The position numbers and the translations under genes were made by a program. The notes under the pieces are model-generated. The model saw only the letters and a list, made by a program, of their open reading frames with translations, was not told the DNA's origin and ran no database searches. DNA of 26,281 bases, taken from assembly GCA_964579195.1 (NCBI GenBank), contig CAZOFN010000001.1, positions 1-26,281 of the forward strand. Direction: 5' to 3'. Origin of the DNA: an uncultured Candidatus Saccharibacteria bacterium (GTDB lineage Bacteria; Patescibacteriota; Minisyncoccia; Sungbacterales; JACQCQ01). Positions 15,422-26,281 of the stretch are shown in pieces (within the stretch, counting starts at the first letter, position 1; every line of letters begins with the position of its first letter).

Positions 15422-15547
15422 CCCCGCACTAAAATTTGAAGATACGGGCAATTAGCTCAGTGGTAGAGCGCGTCACTGATAATGACGAGGTCGGAAGTTC
15501 GATCCTTCCATTGCCCACTACTTCAGAGGTTCAAATTTAGTGCGGGG
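15422..15547. mobile_element. MITE-like insert with ~18-bp terminal inverted repeats enclosing a tRNA
   Basis: CCCCGCACTAAAATTTGAA (15422-15440) and TTCAAATTTAGTGCGGGG (15530-15547) are reverse complements apart from one extra A. Confidence 0.55.
15446..15517 (+). tRNA. tRNA-Ile(GAT), intact, CCA not encoded
   Basis: Acceptor GGGCAAT/ATTGCCC+A; D arm GCTC/GAGC; anticodon arm CGTCA-CTGATAA-TGACG; T arm GGAAG-TTCGATC-CTTCC. Confidence 0.96.
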
Positions 15548-22676: not shown

Positions 22677-23801
22677 ATGGAAGTGAGCTCGACTATGAAG
22701 AAAGGGGGTAAAGCAGTTTTTTTAGGAATGTCGGGAGGTGTTGACTCCTCCGTTGCCGCTGTGCTCTTGAAAAGAGAAGGCTATAACGTGAGAGGTGTTT
22801 TCATGAAAAATTGGGCCGACCCTAAGTATCCCTGCCCATGGGAAGATGACCGACGGGATGCCATGCGTGTTGCGGCAATACTCGATATTCCCTTCGAGAC
22901 GTGGAACTTCACTAAAGAGTATCGCGGCACGGTAGTGGAGTACATGATTCGCGAGTATGCAGCTGGCTGTACGCCAAACCCCGATGTCATGTGTAATCGG
23001 GAAATTAAATTTGGGTTGTTTTTGAGACGGGCCCTGAAAGAGGGTGCGGATTTTGTGGCGACCGGGCACTATGTAAAGAAAGTCCAAAGTCCAAAGTCCA
23101 AAGTCCAAAATTTGGCGATTGCAAAAGATTTAAACAAGGATCAGTCGTACTTTTTATGGACACTGACGCAAAATCAACTGCAACATAGTCTTTTTCCTAT
23201 TGGTAATTACTTGAAAAGTGAAGTTCGCCAAATCGCGCGCGAAGCCGGGTTGCCGACGGCAGAAAAGCCGGATTCGCAGGGAGTTTGTTTTGTCGGTGAA
23301 ATTGACGTGGCTGCGTTTTTGCGCGACCACATCCCAGCCAAACGAGGCTTGGTCGTTACGACAAGCGGAAAAAAAGTTGGCGAGCACGACGGCGCCATGT
23401 TTTACACTATCGGCCAGCGGCACGGGCTTGGCGTCGGCGGGGGCATTCCGTTTTACGTTGCCGCGAAGGATACGAGGACGAATACGCTCGTGGTTGCAGA
23501 GGGACCCAATGATGGAGAGCTTTTCCGTCGCGAGTTAATCGCCTCCGATTTGAATTGGATAAACGGTGAACCAAGGTTCCCGCTTCGCTGCGAGGCGCGT
23601 ATTCGCTACCGCCAGCCCCTACAAAAAGCTCGAATCATGAAGCATGAATCAGGCAGCAGGAAGCAGAAAAATTCCGTGATGCATGGTTCAAGTTTTATGA
23701 TTCATGTTGAGTTTGACAGCGAGCAGCGGGCAGTGACTCCCGGGCAGTCCGTTGTGTTTTATAAAGACGGGGTGATGCTGGGTGGCGGAATTATCTCCTA
23801 G
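22677..23801 (+). CDS. mnmA: tRNA 2-thiouridine(34) synthase MnmA (start may be 22695)
   Basis: GMSGGVDSSVAA, TPNPDVMCNREIKF, ATGHY, KDQSYFL, DSQGVCF, TIGQR and RAVTPGQ. Confidence 0.97.
   Translation: MEVSSTMKKGGKAVFLGMSGGVDSSVAAVLLKREGYNVRGVFMKNWADPKYPCPWEDDRRDAMRVAAILDIPFETWNFTKEYRGTVVEYMIREYAAGCTPNPDVMCNREIKFGLFLRRALKEGADFVATGHYVKKVQSPKSKVQNLAIAKDLNKDQSYFLWTLTQNQLQHSLFPIGNYLKSEVRQIAREAGLPTAEKPDSQGVCFVGEIDVAAFLRDHIPAKRGLVVTTSGKKVGEHDGAMFYTIGQRHGLGVGGGIPFYVAAKDTRTNTLVVAEGPNDGELFRRELIASDLNWINGEPRFPLRCEARIRYRQPLQKARIMKHESGSRKQKNSVMHGSSFMIHVEFDSEQRAVTPGQSVVFYKDGVMLGGGIIS
23079..23106 (+). repeat. Perfect (AAAGTCC)x4 heptamer repeat inside mnmA
   Basis: Encodes KVQSPKSKVQ between ATGHY and KDQSYFL. 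Confidence 0.95.
23633..23706. repeat. Degenerate inverted heptamer arrays inside mnmA
   Basis: AATCATG AAGCATG AATCAGG CAGCAGG AAGCAGA (23633-23667) and TGATGCA TGGTTCA AGTTTTA TGATTCA (23677-23704), in frame. Confidence 0.7.
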
Positions 23802-23876
23802 ATAAAGCCAGATACGGCTGGCTCCGCTACTCACAGGTTATCCATACGTTGTCCCCGAAACGGCTATTTTTGATAC

Positions 23877-23905
23877 TTGACGCGTCTTTTGCTGCGCGGT
23901 ACCTT
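23877..23905 (+). promoter_or_regulatory. sigma70 promoter of large RNA 1
   Basis: TTGACG, 17 nt, TACCTT. Confidence 0.7.
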
Positions 23906-23913
23906 TTCCCTAC

Positions 23914-24440
23914 GCAGCAGTACCTTCGATCGCTCAGTTCGCCCGGGGTAACTCGGGTGCAACAGGGCAGGAAGCAGTCGCCCAAGCAGAGTTCAGTGTT
24001 GAGAGGCTGCGAACCTCTCTCACTGAAACCTCCAGGGACGCGGTAGGTTGCCCATCTGCCGCGAGCAAACCCTGACGCACTGGGAAATGGTTCAGGCTGG
24101 GGTCAAAACCGGCCGGTTGGATTCCAGCATCGGCTGGCCAAGCCGATCAAGAACCACACCCAGGATGAATTCCCTGTCGCTCCATAAAGGTAAGAGAATG
24201 TCGCGAGATGTTCTGTGACCTTAAGTGGAGATCTCCGCAAGGAGGATACGTTCGTTCTTCGAAAGGAGAACGAAAAAAGACGAGGAGTTCGCGTATAGAG
24301 GTGAGAGACTTCCGGAATGTCTCTCGGACGGGTTAAGTGGTTGAGATAAGTGATCTGTTGAGATGTGGGGAGGCATCCACGCATTAAGATAGGTCGCGAG
24401 TCGCAACTAGCGAAACCGTAATCTGTCCCAGGGCTGCTGC
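23914..24440 (+). ncRNA. Large ornate structured RNA 1, ROOL-like
   Basis: Closed by GCAGCAG (23914-23920)/CTGCTGC (24434-24440), with more than 10 stems and GNRA loops (GTAA, GCGA, GCAA, GAAA) and no ORF. Segments CTCAGTTCGC, GGGGTCAAAA...TTGGATTCCAGC, TGTCGCTC..AAAGGT, TGTGACCTTAA, GGTTAAGTGGTTGAGA and GCGAAACCGTAATCTG match my recollection of ROOL in order; not checked by search. Confidence 0.72.
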
Positions 24441-24508
24441 TCTCCGAAACTCACTGGTCGAAGCTCGACCAGATACGTTCTAAGCCCTTCCTGGCGATGC
24501 CGGAAGGC

Positions 24509-24544
24509 CGCCTGGTGGTAACCCCGCCAGGCGTCTTCGTTTTT
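24509..24544 (+). terminator. Intrinsic terminator of RNA 1
   Basis: CGCCTGG.../...CCAGGCG stem followed by TCTTCGTTTTT. Confidence 0.7.
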
Positions 24545-24561
24545 AGGGAGACTTTTTATAC

Positions 24562-24589
24562 TTGACGGTTGTTTGTTATTTGGTACGAT
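24562..24589 (+). promoter_or_regulatory. sigma70 promoter of large RNA 2
   Basis: TTGACG, 16 nt, extended -10 TG-G-TACGAT. Shares ATACTTGACG with the RNA 1 promoter. Confidence 0.7.
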
Positions 24590-24595
24590 GCCATT

Positions 24596-25196
24596 ACTAT
24601 CGGAAGTACCGGTTTACAAAACGTCGTGTGGCCTCACGGTCACACATCAATGGTGGCGGCGGGTTAACACGCGCATGTGGCGTCAGACGCGGGCATGTGC
24701 AACGTGCGGTTCGAGCGCGTGTGCTCTACCTCCAACTCGCCGCCACCTCGTAGTTCTCTCAAAACGAATCTGACCGCGTGCCTCGGCGAAAGGTATCCCT
24801 AGTAGCCAAAGGCGCACGGCAGCAGGCAGGTAGCACGGCGTGGCGCCGTCGCGGGCCCTCGAAGAGGCGCGGGCAAGACCCCGAGTGTCCCCGCGCGTGA
24901 GAAACCGCCCCGATACCATGTTCGAAATGGGACTCACTCTGGCTAAGAGTCGCGGAGCCCATCCCTCCAGCGCGAGGGGGCGTCGCTCTCTAGACGACCC
25001 ACGTTCTCGCTCAGACGCCAGGGGTTTGGCCGAGGCTTGAGCCCTCCTCGGCACGCCAGGATGGGGGCAAGCACGACGACATCACGTCACACCGTGTTCG
25101 ACTGTACCGTTGTACCGTGTTCGTGGAGTGGGCCGTTCGCCACGCGCCCCACGTCCGGCTCTCTGCCTGCTCGTCTCTCGCCAGTACGGCTGGCAC
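24596..25196 (+). ncRNA. Large GC-rich structured RNA 2, family unassigned (weak GOLLD-like motifs)
   Basis: 14-bp stem 24652-24665/24734-24747, long-range AGCAGGCAG/CTGCCTGCT (24821-24829/25163-25171) and many nested hairpins. No credible ORF; bounded by a promoter and terminator. Confidence 0.65.
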
Positions 25197-25231
25197 CGCC
25201 CGTTCCTTCGGAACGGGCGTTCGACTTTTTT
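25197..25231 (+). terminator. Intrinsic terminator of RNA 2
   Basis: CGCCCGTTCC-TTC-GGAACGGGCG followed by TTCGACTTTTTT. Confidence 0.8.
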
Positions 25232-25270
25232 GGACAGCAAGAGAAGTTTTTGTTTGAATAACCGAGAGCC

Positions 25271-26281
25271 ATGAATGCGAATGAAATACGGAAAAAGTTT
25301 CTCGATTTTTGGGAGAAGCGCGGCCACGCCATTATTCCGTCGGCATCGCTTGTGCCGGAGGGTGATATTACTACGCTCTTTACCGGTTCCGGCATGCAGC
25401 CCCTCATCAAATATCTCTTGGGCGAGGCGCATCCAAAGGGAGTGCGTCTCGCAAATTCGCAAAAAAGTTTTCGTGCCGAGGACATTGACGAAGTGGGAGA
25501 CAACCGCCATACCACGTTTTTTGAAATGCTCGGAAACTGGTCTTTGGGAGATTACTTCAAAGAAGAGCAGCTTTCGTGGTTCTTTGAGTTTCTTACCGAC
25601 GAGGTTGGGCTTGACCCTCAAAAGCTCTACGTGACGGTATTTGCCGGAGATCCGGGGAATAACGTTCCCCGCGATGACGAGTCGGTCGCTATCTGGAAAC
25701 GGCTCTTTCAGGAGAAAGGGATAGAAGCGAAAGATGTCGAGCTGATTACCGAAGAGCGGGGAGGTGAGCTCGGCATGCAAAGCGGCCGCATTTTTTATTA
25801 TCAAAACAAAAACTGGTGGAGCCGCGCGGGGGCGCCAGCCAGCATGCCGCCGCACGAACCCGGCGGTCCGGATTCCGAAGTTTTTTATGAATTTACTGAT
25901 GTCCCGCACGATTCGAAGTTCGGCAAATTTTGCCATCCTAATTGCGACTGCGGCCGCTTTATGGAGATTGGGAACTCCGTTTTTATGGAATATGTAAAAA
26001 AAGAGGATGGCACATTTGAAAAGTTAGCGCAGCAGAATGTGGATTTTGGCGGGGGGCTTGAGCGGATCGCGGCTGCTTCTCGCGACGATCCTGATATGTT
26101 CAATATCGATCTTCTGAGACCACTTATGGAAGTATTACACTTTACTGATACCAATCGAAGGCACAAACGTATCATTGTCGACCATACCAGAGCGTCAGCA
26201 TTTCTTCTGGCCGATGGCGTACGTCCTTCTAATAAGGGAGCGGGGTATATTTTACGTCGTCTAATGCGACGCATTTTTACC
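25271..26281 (+). CDS. alaS: Alanine--tRNA ligase, N-terminal part (runs off the window, so absent from the ORF track)
   Basis: Hand translation from ATG 25271: MNANEIRKKFLDFWEKRGH...TTLFTGSGMQPL...RHTTFFEMLGNWSLGDYFK, later NVDFGGGLERI and PSNKGAGYILRRLMRR. Confidence 0.97.
   Translation, partial: MNANEIRKKFLDFWEKRGHAIIPSASLVPEGDITTLFTGSGMQPLIKYLLGEAHPKGVRLANSQKSFRAEDIDEVGDNRHTTFFEMLGNWSLGDYFKEEQLSWFFEFLTDEVGLDPQKLYVTVFAGDPGNNVPRDDESVAIWKRLFQEKGIEAKDVELITEERGGELGMQSGRIFYYQNKNWWSRAGAPASMPPHEPGGPDSEVFYEFTDVPHDSKFGKFCHPNCDCGRFMEIGNSVFMEYVKKEDGTFEKLAQQNVDFGGGLERIAAASRDDPDMFNIDLLRPLMEVLHFTDTNRRHKRIIVDHTRASAFLLADGVRPSNKGAGYILRRLMRRIFT

What the first reader, a model, noticed from the sequence alone, without database searches (positions are those of the whole stretch)
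23877..25231. Tandem pair of giant structured RNAs with matching promoters between translation genes
Two ORF-free ~0.6-kb units sit back to back, only 17 nt from terminator 1 to the next -35 box. Both promoters begin ATACTTGACG, suggesting co-regulation, and both RNAs contain a GTCGCTC and a (G/C)AAA-N2-3-AATCTG segment. About 1.35 kb of non-coding DNA is costly in a streamlined genome. The pair is flanked by mnmA and alaS, with miaA, thrS, lepA and a tRNA locus nearby. If both are cage-forming RNAs (ROOL and GOLLD-like), their adjacency hints at a shared tRNA- or translation-linked role or a two-component RNA assembly. This is speculative.
Basis: partly seen in the sequence, partly recalled or inferred. 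Interest (0 to 1): 0.88.

Follow-up and report, generated by a model that had tools for sequence, protein, structure and literature searches.

The report
Two large structured RNA genes
Between two translation genes of a tiny groundwater bacterium lie two separate genes of about 630 bases for highly folded non-coding RNAs: one belongs to a small new RNA family shared with two related bacteria, the other is seen only here, neither is a ROOL or GOLLD RNA, and nothing shows that they work as a pair.

Summary
Window 23877-25231 carries two ORF-free units on the + strand, each with a sigma-70-like promoter and an intrinsic terminator. Both fold far better than shuffles (z -9.3 and -5.5).

The ROOL/GOLLD reading fails. 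Rfam 15 gives no hit even at E<=10, and RNase P RNA and tmRNA lie on other contigs.

Unit 1 belongs to an undescribed ~600-660-nt family, which I call "type A". I found it in three Candidatus Sungbacteria lineages, always between mnmA and alaS. All three share the same ~16-helix nested fold. In a 139-nt subdomain, 23 of 46 pairs show compensatory changes (0/500 shuffles).

Unit 2 is an orphan with no homologue in any search. It is supported only by its own promoter, terminator and fold.

Type A occurs without unit 2 in the other two lineages. Two sister genomes carry a different ~530-nt structured RNA ("type B") at the same site. So the adjacency is unique to this genome.

The internal motifs the two units share are at chance level, and the units show no excess complementarity. 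The best reading is two independent, trans-acting large structured RNAs of unknown biochemical role at a variable locus.

This scan has flagged similar orphan large RNAs in other CPR genomes, but not this family.

The parts
22677..23801 (+). mnmA (tRNA 2-thiouridylase), upstream neighbour
   Evidence: Pfam tRNA_Me_trans plus its M and C domains, E 1.5e-76.
23808..23827 (+). Small hairpin GCCAG-AUAC-GGCUGGC just after the mnmA stop. It is copy 1 of a ~20-nt direct repeat whose copy 2 lies at 25180-25199.
   Evidence: the repeat finder D2, 14/15 identical, spacing 1372. Expected about 0.06 times by chance (my estimate). Meaning unclear.
23867..23905 (+). Promoter of unit 1: T-rich stretch, ATACTTGACG (-35 at 23877-23882), 17-nt spacer, -10 TACCTT (23900-23905).
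   Evidence: Sequence. The same layout is conserved in homologues: L118 TTGACG-17-TAATCT and L117 AATACTTGACC-18-TAATCC. The -10 is too weak to pass the consensus scan.
23911..24543 (+). Unit 1 RNA (~633 nt, GC 0.555), a member of the new 'type A' family. It has a long-range closing helix (23970-23983 with 24431-24445) around five multistem junctions.
   Evidence: Fold z -9.25. nhmmer to L118 E 1.8e-11. Parallel helix lists in three sequences. Helix coordinates.
24028..24166 (+). Type A subdomain (helices H5/H6 and H8-H10) used for covariance model R2.
   Evidence: R2 finds L117 (E 5e-6) and L118 (E 0.045) at the syntenic place. 93.6% of cells are paired and 23/46 pairs have double changes, with 0/500 shuffles reaching that.
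24509..24543 (+). Intrinsic terminator of unit 1: 10-bp stem with 8 G-C pairs, then a U-tract.
   Evidence: Terminator scan.
24552..24589 (+). Promoter of unit 2: T-rich stretch, ATACTTGACG (-35 at 24562-24567), 16-nt spacer, TG-extended -10 TACGAT (24584-24589).
   Evidence: Promoter scan, 9/12 with TG. 22-nt repeat with unit 1's promoter.
24596..25231 (+). Unit 2 RNA (~636 nt, GC 0.637), an orphan. Predicted three-way domain at 24652-24747 and a 30-bp long-range helix (24821-24854 with 25137-25171).
   Evidence: Fold z -5.46. Helix pairing probabilities 0.92-0.99. No homologue found.
25197..25231 (+). Intrinsic terminator of unit 2: 10-bp stem, UUC loop, T6.
   Evidence: Sequence. Pairing probability 0.99.
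25230..25259 (+). Candidate promoter of alaS itself: TTGGAC, 18-nt spacer, TG-n-TTGAAT. It overlaps the U-tract of terminator 2. The ATG lies 12 nt after the -10.
   Evidence: Read from the sequence. The same TTGGAN-17-T(T)nAAT layout follows the terminator in G002 and G004. This is a consensus match only.
25271..26281 (+). alaS (alanine-tRNA ligase), downstream neighbour; it runs off the window.
   Evidence: Pfam tRNA-synt_2c, E 7.2e-78.

Best explanation
The region holds two independent RNA genes in tandem on the + strand. Each is transcribed from its own sigma-70-type promoter and ended by its own intrinsic terminator, giving RNAs of about 633 and 636 nt.

Unit 1 belongs to an undescribed, lineage-restricted family of large structured RNAs ('type A', 600-660 nt). 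A long-range helix closes a core of about a dozen helices with five multistem junctions and several GNRA loops.

Unit 2 is a G+C-rich structured RNA with no detectable relative.

I infer, but have not shown, that both are stable trans-acting RNAs, acting as scaffolds of ribonucleoproteins or RNA-only assemblies or as ribozymes, in the manner of OLE, ROOL and GOLLD. I also infer that they are not leaders of alaS and do not depend on each other.

Their position reflects a permissive, variable mnmA-alaS intergenic site. In sister lineages that site holds type A alone, an unrelated ~530-nt structured RNA (type B), a ~300-nt unit, protein genes, or nothing.
For: Shown:
- Promoter and terminator for each unit.
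- Strand-specific excess folding.
- No coding signal.
- No Rfam family. RNase P RNA and tmRNA lie elsewhere.

Unit 1:
- nhmmer hit to L118/G003, E 1.8e-11, between mnmA and alaS.
- A third member in L117.
- Global alignment z 7-10 among the three.
- Independent MFE folds give the same nested helix order in all three. Each folds well (z -6.3 and -5.6).
- Covariation in the 139-nt subdomain: 93.6% of cells paired, against 75% in shuffles and 30-41% with slid partners. 23/46 pairs have changes on both sides, 0/500 shuffles.
- A sequence-only alignment still gives 54-56% canonical pairs against 30-38% with slid partners.

Independence of the two units:
- Type A stands alone upstream of alaS in G003/L118 and L117.
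- Shared k-mers are at chance level.
- There is no excess complementarity.

Variable locus:
- Type B sits in G002 and G004. Its two copies are 61% identical, with 123 consensus pairs, 10 double and 21 single changes, and none broken; z -7.95.
- Other relatives have gaps of 105-214 nt or ORFs in the gap.

An alaS promoter-like site follows the terminator in three genomes.
Against:
- Unit 2 rests on one sequence only, so its structure has no comparative support.
- Type A has only three distinct sequences. The covariation count was made on an alignment fitted to the model's structure.
- Unit 1's -10 hexamer is weak (3/6).
- Each RNA ends 40-110 nt upstream of alaS in every genome where it is the last unit, so read-through control of alaS is not excluded.
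- Function is wholly inferred. No partner protein or target was identified.
Confidence: 0.6

Rival explanations
1. One rapidly evolving RNA gene family occupies the mnmA-alaS site. Types A, B and unit 2 are divergent, functionally interchangeable versions. This genome carries two of them after a duplication or a second acquisition, so the pair are paralogues or analogues and might even act together.
For: - Same site, strand and size class (520-670 nt), and the same overall plan: a 5' hairpin, then a purine-rich 5' strand (GGCAG...) pairing with a CU-rich 3' strand to close a multibranch core, then a small hairpin and a terminator.
- The unit lengths are nearly equal, 633 and 636 nt.
- A 22-nt promoter repeat links the two units.
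- Unit 2's 5' hairpin plus UUUACAA resembles the type B 5' end: local-alignment p 0.003 against G002 and 0.08 against G004.
Against: - Unit 2 shows no significant similarity to anything beyond that 5' end: global z <=1.8. nhmmer profiles of A and B hit neither each other nor unit 2.
- k-mers conserved in A or B are shared with unit 2 only at chance level.
- The closest relative by AlaRS (G004, 83% identity) carries a type B RNA that is unrecognisable in unit 2.
- The shared plan is generic for large RNAs.
Confidence: 0.15
2. The RNA next to alaS (unit 2 here; type A or B in the relatives) is a giant cis-acting leader. It would sense tRNA-Ala, AlaRS or a metabolite and control read-through of its terminator into alaS, working like a T-box or a protein-binding attenuator.
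For: - In every genome the last unit ends in an intrinsic terminator 40-110 nt before alaS, on the same strand.
- aaRS genes are classic targets of leader control (established for T-box systems).
Against: - No T-box or other riboswitch model matches at E<=10.
- A promoter-like site for alaS lies after the terminator in three genomes.
- Three unrelated sequences would have to perform the same sensing.
- Type A is separated from alaS by unit 2 and its promoter in this genome.
- Several relatives with 66-69% identical MnmA have only 105-214 nt before alaS.
- 500-650 nt is far beyond known leaders.
Confidence: 0.12
3. Unit 2 is not a functional RNA. It would be a G+C-rich remnant of inserted or foreign DNA, or a decayed gene, that happens to lie between a promoter copy and the original mnmA/alaS terminator.
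For: - Orphan status in every search.
- GC 0.64 against 0.51 for the genome.
- A ~20-nt direct repeat brackets the block: 23808-23827 and 25180-25199.
- Its promoter looks like a copy of unit 1's.
- The interior helices have low pairing probability, 0.2-0.5.
Against: - z -5.46 against dinucleotide-preserving shuffles, and stronger on the + strand than the - strand.
- A 30-bp long-range helix and a 14-bp junction helix with probabilities 0.92-0.98.
- No ORF with any Pfam hit.
- No similarity to phages.
- Elevated G+C is typical of structured RNA genes.
- Such DNA would be costly to keep in a 0.82-Mb genome.
Confidence: 0.1
4. The units are very divergent ROOL and/or GOLLD RNAs that Rfam's models cannot recognise.
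For: - The size of about 630 nt is close to ROOL's mean of 581 nt.
- Unit 1 has a multi-junction 'ornate' fold with five predicted multistem junctions; ROOL has six (PMC5737381).
Against: - No match to RF03087 or RF01998 at E<=10, in the window or in three homologous or neighbouring loci.
- No nearby tRNA and no prophage context.
- Nothing similar in viral contigs beyond chance pattern hits.
- GOLLD is about 800 nt.
Confidence: 0.03

Closest known systems
ROOL RNA (Rfam RF03087)
   Same: A stand-alone bacterial non-coding RNA of about 600 nt with many multistem junctions, relatively few strongly conserved nucleotides, and unknown biochemical function.
   Different: - No covariance-model match.
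- Found in Patescibacteria, not in Bacillota, Fusobacteria or Mycoplasmatota.
- Not near tRNA genes or prophages.
- Known from three sequences in one clade, not widespread.
- Pseudoknots and oligomeric state are unknown.
GOLLD RNA (Rfam RF01998)
   Same: A large ornate non-coding RNA with its own transcription signals and unknown function.
   Different: - No model match.
- About 630 nt rather than about 800 nt.
- No tRNA or prophage association.
OLE RNA (Rfam RF01071)
   Same: A ~600-nt highly structured RNA that acts in trans as part of a ribonucleoprotein. This is the working analogy for how type A may act.
   Different: - No model match.
- OLE is confined to Bacillota and is genetically linked to oap genes. 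No linked protein gene was found here.
T-box leaders of aminoacyl-tRNA synthetase genes (Rfam RF00230)
   Same: A structured RNA ending in an intrinsic terminator directly upstream of an aaRS gene, on the same strand.
   Different: - No model match.
- Two to three times longer than a T-box.
- A separate alaS promoter-like site follows the terminator.
- Non-homologous RNAs occupy the place in sister genomes.
Orphan large structured RNAs flagged by this scan in other CPR genomes (e1-793550, e1-2045571)
   Same: Self-contained promoter-to-terminator units of several hundred nt in tiny Parcubacteria-type genomes, relatively G+C-rich, with no Rfam family.
   Different: They lie in different genomes and I did not compare the sequences. 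Unlike those, unit 1 has relatives with covariation.

Membership tests
ROOL (RF03087) | Scores with the Rfam covariance model. | tested here: not met
   No hit at the gathering score or at E<=10 with lax filters on 23750-25320. None in the homologous loci L117, L118, L113 and L122.
ROOL (RF03087) | [quoted passage not shown] | tested here: inconclusive
   Length is 633 nt. Five multistem junctions are predicted for unit 1. Pseudoknots cannot be predicted with the tools used.
ROOL / GOLLD | Frequent location next to tRNA genes and/or in prophages. | tested here: not met
   The only tRNA in the window is at 15446-15517. The neighbours are mnmA and alaS. No match in 50,697 phage records. The motifs are not in IMG/VR beyond two chance hits.
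ROOL / GOLLD / OLE | Homo-oligomeric RNA assemblies seen by cryo-EM (PMC12286853). | not testable with these tools
   Needs in vitro transcription and cryo-EM or SEC-MALS.
GOLLD (RF01998) | Scores with the Rfam covariance model; about 800 nt. | tested here: not met
   No hit. The units are 633 and 636 nt.
OLE (RF01071) | Scores with the Rfam covariance model. | tested here: not met
   No hit.
T-box leader (RF00230) | Stem I specifier, T-box sequence and antiterminator, as captured by the Rfam model. | tested here: not met
   No hit at E<=10.
T-box leader (RF00230) | Lies in the 5' leader of an aaRS gene and ends in a terminator. | tested here: inconclusive
   Unit 2's terminator ends 40 nt before alaS. 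However, a promoter-like TTGGAC-18-TGtTTGAAT lies in between, and the same layout is conserved in G002 and G004.
RNase P RNA / tmRNA | The genome's single copy maps here. | tested here: not met
   RNase P RNA is at C22:779-1126 and tmRNA at C13:13707-14090.
Type A (new family proposed here): unit 1 | Significant sequence similarity among members at a syntenic site. | tested here: met
   nhmmer u1 against L118, E 1.8e-11. Global alignment z 6.9-9.6 among the three. All three lie between mnmA and alaS.
Type A (new family proposed here): unit 1 | Shared secondary structure kept by compensatory changes. | tested here: met
   Parallel helix lists from independent folds. 23/46 pairs have double changes and 93.6% of cells are paired, 0/500 shuffles. 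Caveats: three sequences, and a model-fitted alignment.
Type A or type B: unit 2 | Detectable similarity to either family. | tested here: not met
   No nhmmer profile hit. Global z <=1.8. Only the first ~25 nt resemble the type B 5' end (p 0.003 and 0.08).

The most novel reading that the evidence does not exclude
The mnmA-alaS site of this Sungbacteria clade is a dedicated slot for large RNAs that are structurally ornate and mutually replaceable: type A, type B and unit 2. They would turn over by replacement rather than by point divergence. In the one genome holding two of them, the near-identical promoters give stoichiometric co-expression of two RNAs that act together, as a hetero-assembly or as two subunits of one particle.
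Probability: 0.12. Interest if true: 0.85.

Novelty: new variant of a known kind. Interest (0 to 1): 0.55.

Why it matters
Bacterial non-coding RNAs longer than 500 nt with complex conserved folds are rare. About a dozen classes are known, and each has either revealed unusual biochemistry or remains an open puzzle (OLE, ROOL, GOLLD, raiA).

- Here a 0.82-Mb genome spends 1.35 kb on two such candidates.
- One of them defines a new family with covariation support.
- Sister genomes hold a second new family at the same site.

Together with the earlier orphan RNAs from this scan, this suggests that CPR bacteria hold a reservoir of lineage-specific large RNAs. Type A and type B are compact, well-delimited targets for structure determination and for asking what RNA-based functions ultra-small cells keep.

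Tried and rejected
- Known RNA families: Rfam at gathering score and at E<=10, on the window and on four related loci; nothing.
- Divergent RNase P RNA or tmRNA: both found elsewhere in the genome. ARAGORN found nothing in the region.
- Hidden proteins: seven ORFs of 65-123 aa have no Pfam hit at E<=1. Longer ORFs under code 25 only run antisense or out of frame into alaS.
- Phage origin: blastn 'distant' against phages found nothing. A type B 25-mer and the type A pattern in IMG/VR gave none and two chance hits.
- BLAST of the units in 60 relatives and in 400 genomes of the class: only self hits. BLAST also missed the true homologue in G003, so these negatives are weak.
- mnmA neighbourhoods of 80 GTDB species: nhmmer found nothing, and the gaps are filled by ORFs.
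- Type A pattern (CGARACCG...GCTG...CGAAAYNNNCTGG):
  - The order of 62 genomes gave only G000 and G003.
  - JGI metagenomes gave 81 hits, of which only L203 is real; it is the same population as L118.
- Single-sequence covariance models searched over the order of 62 genomes:
  - R2 (unit 1 subdomain) found no new member, but under the stricter filters it also missed G003, so it is insensitive.
  - R3 (unit 2's 5' 157 nt) found nothing in the order or in related loci.
  - R1 (L118 3' domain) found the two other members only weakly.
- Paralogy of unit 1 and unit 2: blastn, nhmmer, k-mer counts and global alignment are all at chance.
- Unit 1 to unit 2 base-pairing: duplex energy z +1.0. The longest exact complement is 8 nt, against 9.1 in shuffles.
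- Strain variation: the second assembly (L111) differs by 2 SNPs, both in coding genes, so it is uninformative.
- MAFFT alignments of full-length type A were too poor for RNAalifold.
- Literature searches found no description of these RNAs.
Full report
**Source and setting.** The window is contig C1 (bases 1-26281) of a 0.82-Mb, 104-contig genome that is about 95% complete. It equals GCA_016203635.1 contig JACQMG010000019.1 apart from two SNPs, both in coding genes. Its MnmA and AlaRS are closest to proteins named Candidatus Sungbacteria, within Parcubacteria/Patescibacteria. The best non-self MnmA is only 69-73% identical, so there are no close relatives. mnmA is at 22677-23801 and alaS starts at 25271. 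lepA, miaA, thrS, dnaE, RNase HII and one tRNA (15446-15517) lie further upstream.

**The observation.** The 1,469 nt between mnmA and alaS contain no ORF with a Pfam hit and no tRNA or tmRNA.
- Unit 1 has ATACTTGACG (-35 at 23877-23882), a 17-nt spacer, TACCTT, and an intrinsic terminator at 24509-24543.
- Unit 2 has ATACTTGACG (-35 at 24562-24567), a 16-nt spacer, a TG-extended TACGAT, and a terminator at 25197-25231.
- The two promoter regions form a 22-nt direct repeat that is 82% identical. The 10-mer occurs four times in the whole genome, and a 15-mer version is expected 0.15 times per window.
- The + strand RNAs fold much better than dinucleotide shuffles: z -9.25 and -5.46, against -3.7 and -3.2 for the reverse strand.

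So the tandem pair of structured, ORF-free units with matching promoters is real. The internal 'shared motifs' are not meaningful. The units share 29 seven-mers against 27.3 in shuffles and no 9-mer, and the AATCTG element is not kept in unit 1's relatives.

**Not a known family.**
- Rfam 15 gives only the tRNA at gathering score.
- At E<=10 on 23750-25320 it gives only two noise hits on the terminators.
- The same holds for four related loci.
- RNase P RNA and tmRNA are on other contigs.
- There is no similarity to phage genomes.

[quoted passage not shown] The model test and the context test both fail here.

**Unit 1 defines a new family (type A).**
- BLAST in relatives found nothing, and the mnmA-alaS gaps of 80 GTDB species are filled by ORFs.
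- Fetching the contigs of the closest MnmA proteins showed ORF-free gaps.
- nhmmer aligns unit 1 to the gap of L118/L119 at E 1.8e-11. That locus is a JGI groundwater metagenome, also seen as genome G003 and as L203.
- Shared motifs, and later a covariance model, identify a third member in L117, a Logan assembly.
- Global alignment z-scores among the three are 6.9-9.6, against <=1.8 for unit 2 against anything.
- Independent minimum-free-energy folds of the three sequences give the same ordered, nested list of about 16 helices. These are a 5' hairpin, a long-range closing helix, a hairpin, a domain closed by ACCUC/GAGGU (ACCAU/AUGGU in the others) that contains two nested three-way junctions and a four-way junction, two further hairpin domains anchored by CGGRUUAAG and CGARACCG, the return strand, a CUGG...CCAG hairpin, and the terminator.
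- All three fold well: z -9.3, -6.3 and -5.6.
- A single-sequence model of unit 1's subdomain 24028-24166 finds L117 (E 5e-6) and L118 (E 0.045) at the expected places.
- On that alignment 93.6% of cells are standard pairs, against 75% in shuffles and 30-41% with slid partners. 23 of 46 pairs show changes on both sides, and 0 of 500 shuffles reach this.
- The alignment is fitted to the structure and has only three rows. A purely sequence-based alignment still shows 54-56% canonical pairs against 30-38% in slid controls, and about twice as many double changes.
- The promoter layout is conserved too: TTGACG-17-TAATCT and AATACTTGACC-18-TAATCC.

**How rare is type A?**
- A strict motif pattern finds only G000 and G003 among the 62 genomes of the order.
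- In JGI metagenome contigs it finds only the L118 population.
- The covariance-model search of the order is uninformative, because under the stricter filters it misses even G003.

'Rare' therefore means 'not found at the sensitivity available'.

**Unit 2 is an orphan.**
- No hit by BLAST.
- No hit by nhmmer on all fetched loci and on its own genome.
- No hit by a covariance model of its first 157 nt over the order and the related loci.
- Its case rests on a good promoter, a strong terminator, z -5.46, G+C of 0.64 against 0.51 for the genome, and confidently predicted long helices: a 30-bp long-range helix with P 0.92 and a 14-bp junction helix with P 0.98.
- The only similarity to anything is in its first ~25 nt: a hairpin with loop AAGUA followed by UUUACAA. 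This resembles the 5' end of type B (p 0.003 against G002, 0.08 against G004). I treat it as a lead, not a finding.

**The locus varies among sister genomes.** In the family of five GTDB genomes:
- G000 has type A plus unit 2.
- G003 has type A alone.
- G002 (=L113) and G004 (=L228) have a different ~530-nt unit, type B, with its own TTGACA promoter and terminator. Its two copies are 61% identical and fold with z -7.95. They share 123 consensus pairs with 10 double and 21 single changes and none broken.
- G001 has no such gap.

Profiles of A and B hit neither each other nor unit 2. Other relatives have a ~300-nt unit (L122) or only 105-214 nt between the genes. G004's AlaRS N-terminus is 83% identical to this genome's, yet its MnmA is only about 65-68% identical and its RNA is of another type. 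That fits replacement at this site.

**Pairing and co-function.**
- Type A occurs without unit 2 in two of three lineages, and unit 2 occurs nowhere else.
- The two RNAs share nothing beyond the promoter.
- They show no excess complementarity: duplex z +1.0, and the longest complement is 8 nt against 9.1 in shuffles.
- The similar promoters may give similar expression, but that is all that can be said.

Physical interaction remains untested.

**Leader or stand-alone gene?**
- Each last unit ends 40-110 nt before alaS.
- However, a TTGGAN-17/18-T(T)nAAT promoter-like site overlapping the terminator's U-tract is present in G000, G002 and G004. Comparable sites exist in L117 and L118.
- No T-box or riboswitch model matches.
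- Type A is cut off from alaS by unit 2 in this genome.

I therefore favour stand-alone genes and give the leader idea about 0.12.

**Mechanism.**
- Shown: the transcription signals, the strand-specific folding, the conservation and covariation of unit 1, and the independence of the two units in distribution.
- Inferred: that the RNAs accumulate and act in trans as scaffolds, assemblies or catalysts, as OLE, ROOL and GOLLD do. No partner or substrate is indicated by the context.

**Verdict.** The ROOL/GOLLD and two-component readings are not supported. What is there is one new small family of large structured RNAs plus one orphan candidate, at a variable site that holds a second new family in sister genomes. 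The earlier scan notes e1-793550 and e1-2045571 describe similar orphan RNAs in other CPR genomes, so this looks like a wider pattern and not a singular oddity. I score interest at 0.55, as a new variant of a known kind.

Noticed in passing
L113:6284-6797 (=G002, L128:963-1476); L126:3159-2619 minus strand (=G004, L228:3110-3650): A second undescribed structured RNA family ('type B', ~520-550 nt) sits between mnmA and alaS in two sister genomes. It has its own TTGACA promoter and terminator. The two copies are 61% identical, fold with z -7.95, and share 123 consensus pairs with 10 double and 21 single compensatory changes. No Rfam hit.
   Followed up: partly
L122:2430-2941: Another relative (MnmA 67% identical) has a ~300-nt ORF-free unit in the same gap, with TTGACA-17-TAGATT and a terminator. 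It is unrelated by nhmmer to types A and B or to unit 2. Its only Rfam hit is a chance-level ctRNA match on the terminator.
   Followed up: no
window 23808-23827 and 25180-25199: A ~20-nt direct repeat, GCCAG(A)TACGGCTGGC(T/A)CCGC, which is a small hairpin. One copy lies just after the mnmA stop and the other just before unit 2's terminator, 1,372 nt apart. It could bracket an inserted block of unit 1 plus unit 2, or be coincidence (about 0.06 expected).
   Followed up: partly
window ~23838-23856; also L118, L117, G002, G004, L120 and L122, just after the mnmA stop: A TCCACA-type element followed by a T-rich, CC-containing stretch is conserved downstream of mnmA, whichever RNA type (or none) follows. 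In the window it reads TTATCCATA, resembling the DnaA-box consensus TTATCCACA. It may be a protein-binding site.
   Followed up: no
window 25230-25270; G002 and G004 equivalents: alaS appears to have its own promoter, whose -35 (TTGGAN) overlaps the U-tract of the upstream terminator. In the window, G002 and L118 the -10 lies only 6-12 nt before the ATG, suggesting a leaderless or nearly leaderless alaS mRNA.
   Followed up: no
G000:C60:1-1400 (L221): The 16S rRNA 3' region is interrupted. SSU rRNA matches lie at 1-279 and 1280-1397. Between them is a group-II-D1D4-3 hit at 426-590 (30.9 bits, gathering score 32, E 0.004). This is probably a ~1-kb intron or insert in 16S rRNA.
   Followed up: no
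G000:C54:1-656, C73:477-1264, C55:1085-1777, C4:17370-17978, C16:3919-4496, C57:4595-5093, C96:2148-2760: Further ORF-poor stretches of this genome fold well above shuffles (rough z -5 to -10 from 8 shuffles) and have no Rfam hit at E<=0.01. They may be more unannotated structured RNAs or rRNA inserts. C4:17272-17395 gave a weak nhmmer hit to unit 1 (E 0.028).
   Followed up: partly
L114:3038-4961 (also L115, L116): A relative with only 105 nt between mnmA and alaS instead has a 1.9-kb stretch without called genes upstream of mnmA. It contains a DUF5679-like small ORF and several long hairpins.
   Followed up: no
G004 (L126) against the window: AlaRS (N-terminal 337 aa) is 83% identical between G004 and this genome, but the adjacent MnmA is only about 65-68% identical and the intervening RNA is of a different type. 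This jump in similarity across the gap suggests recombination or replacement at this site.
   Followed up: partly
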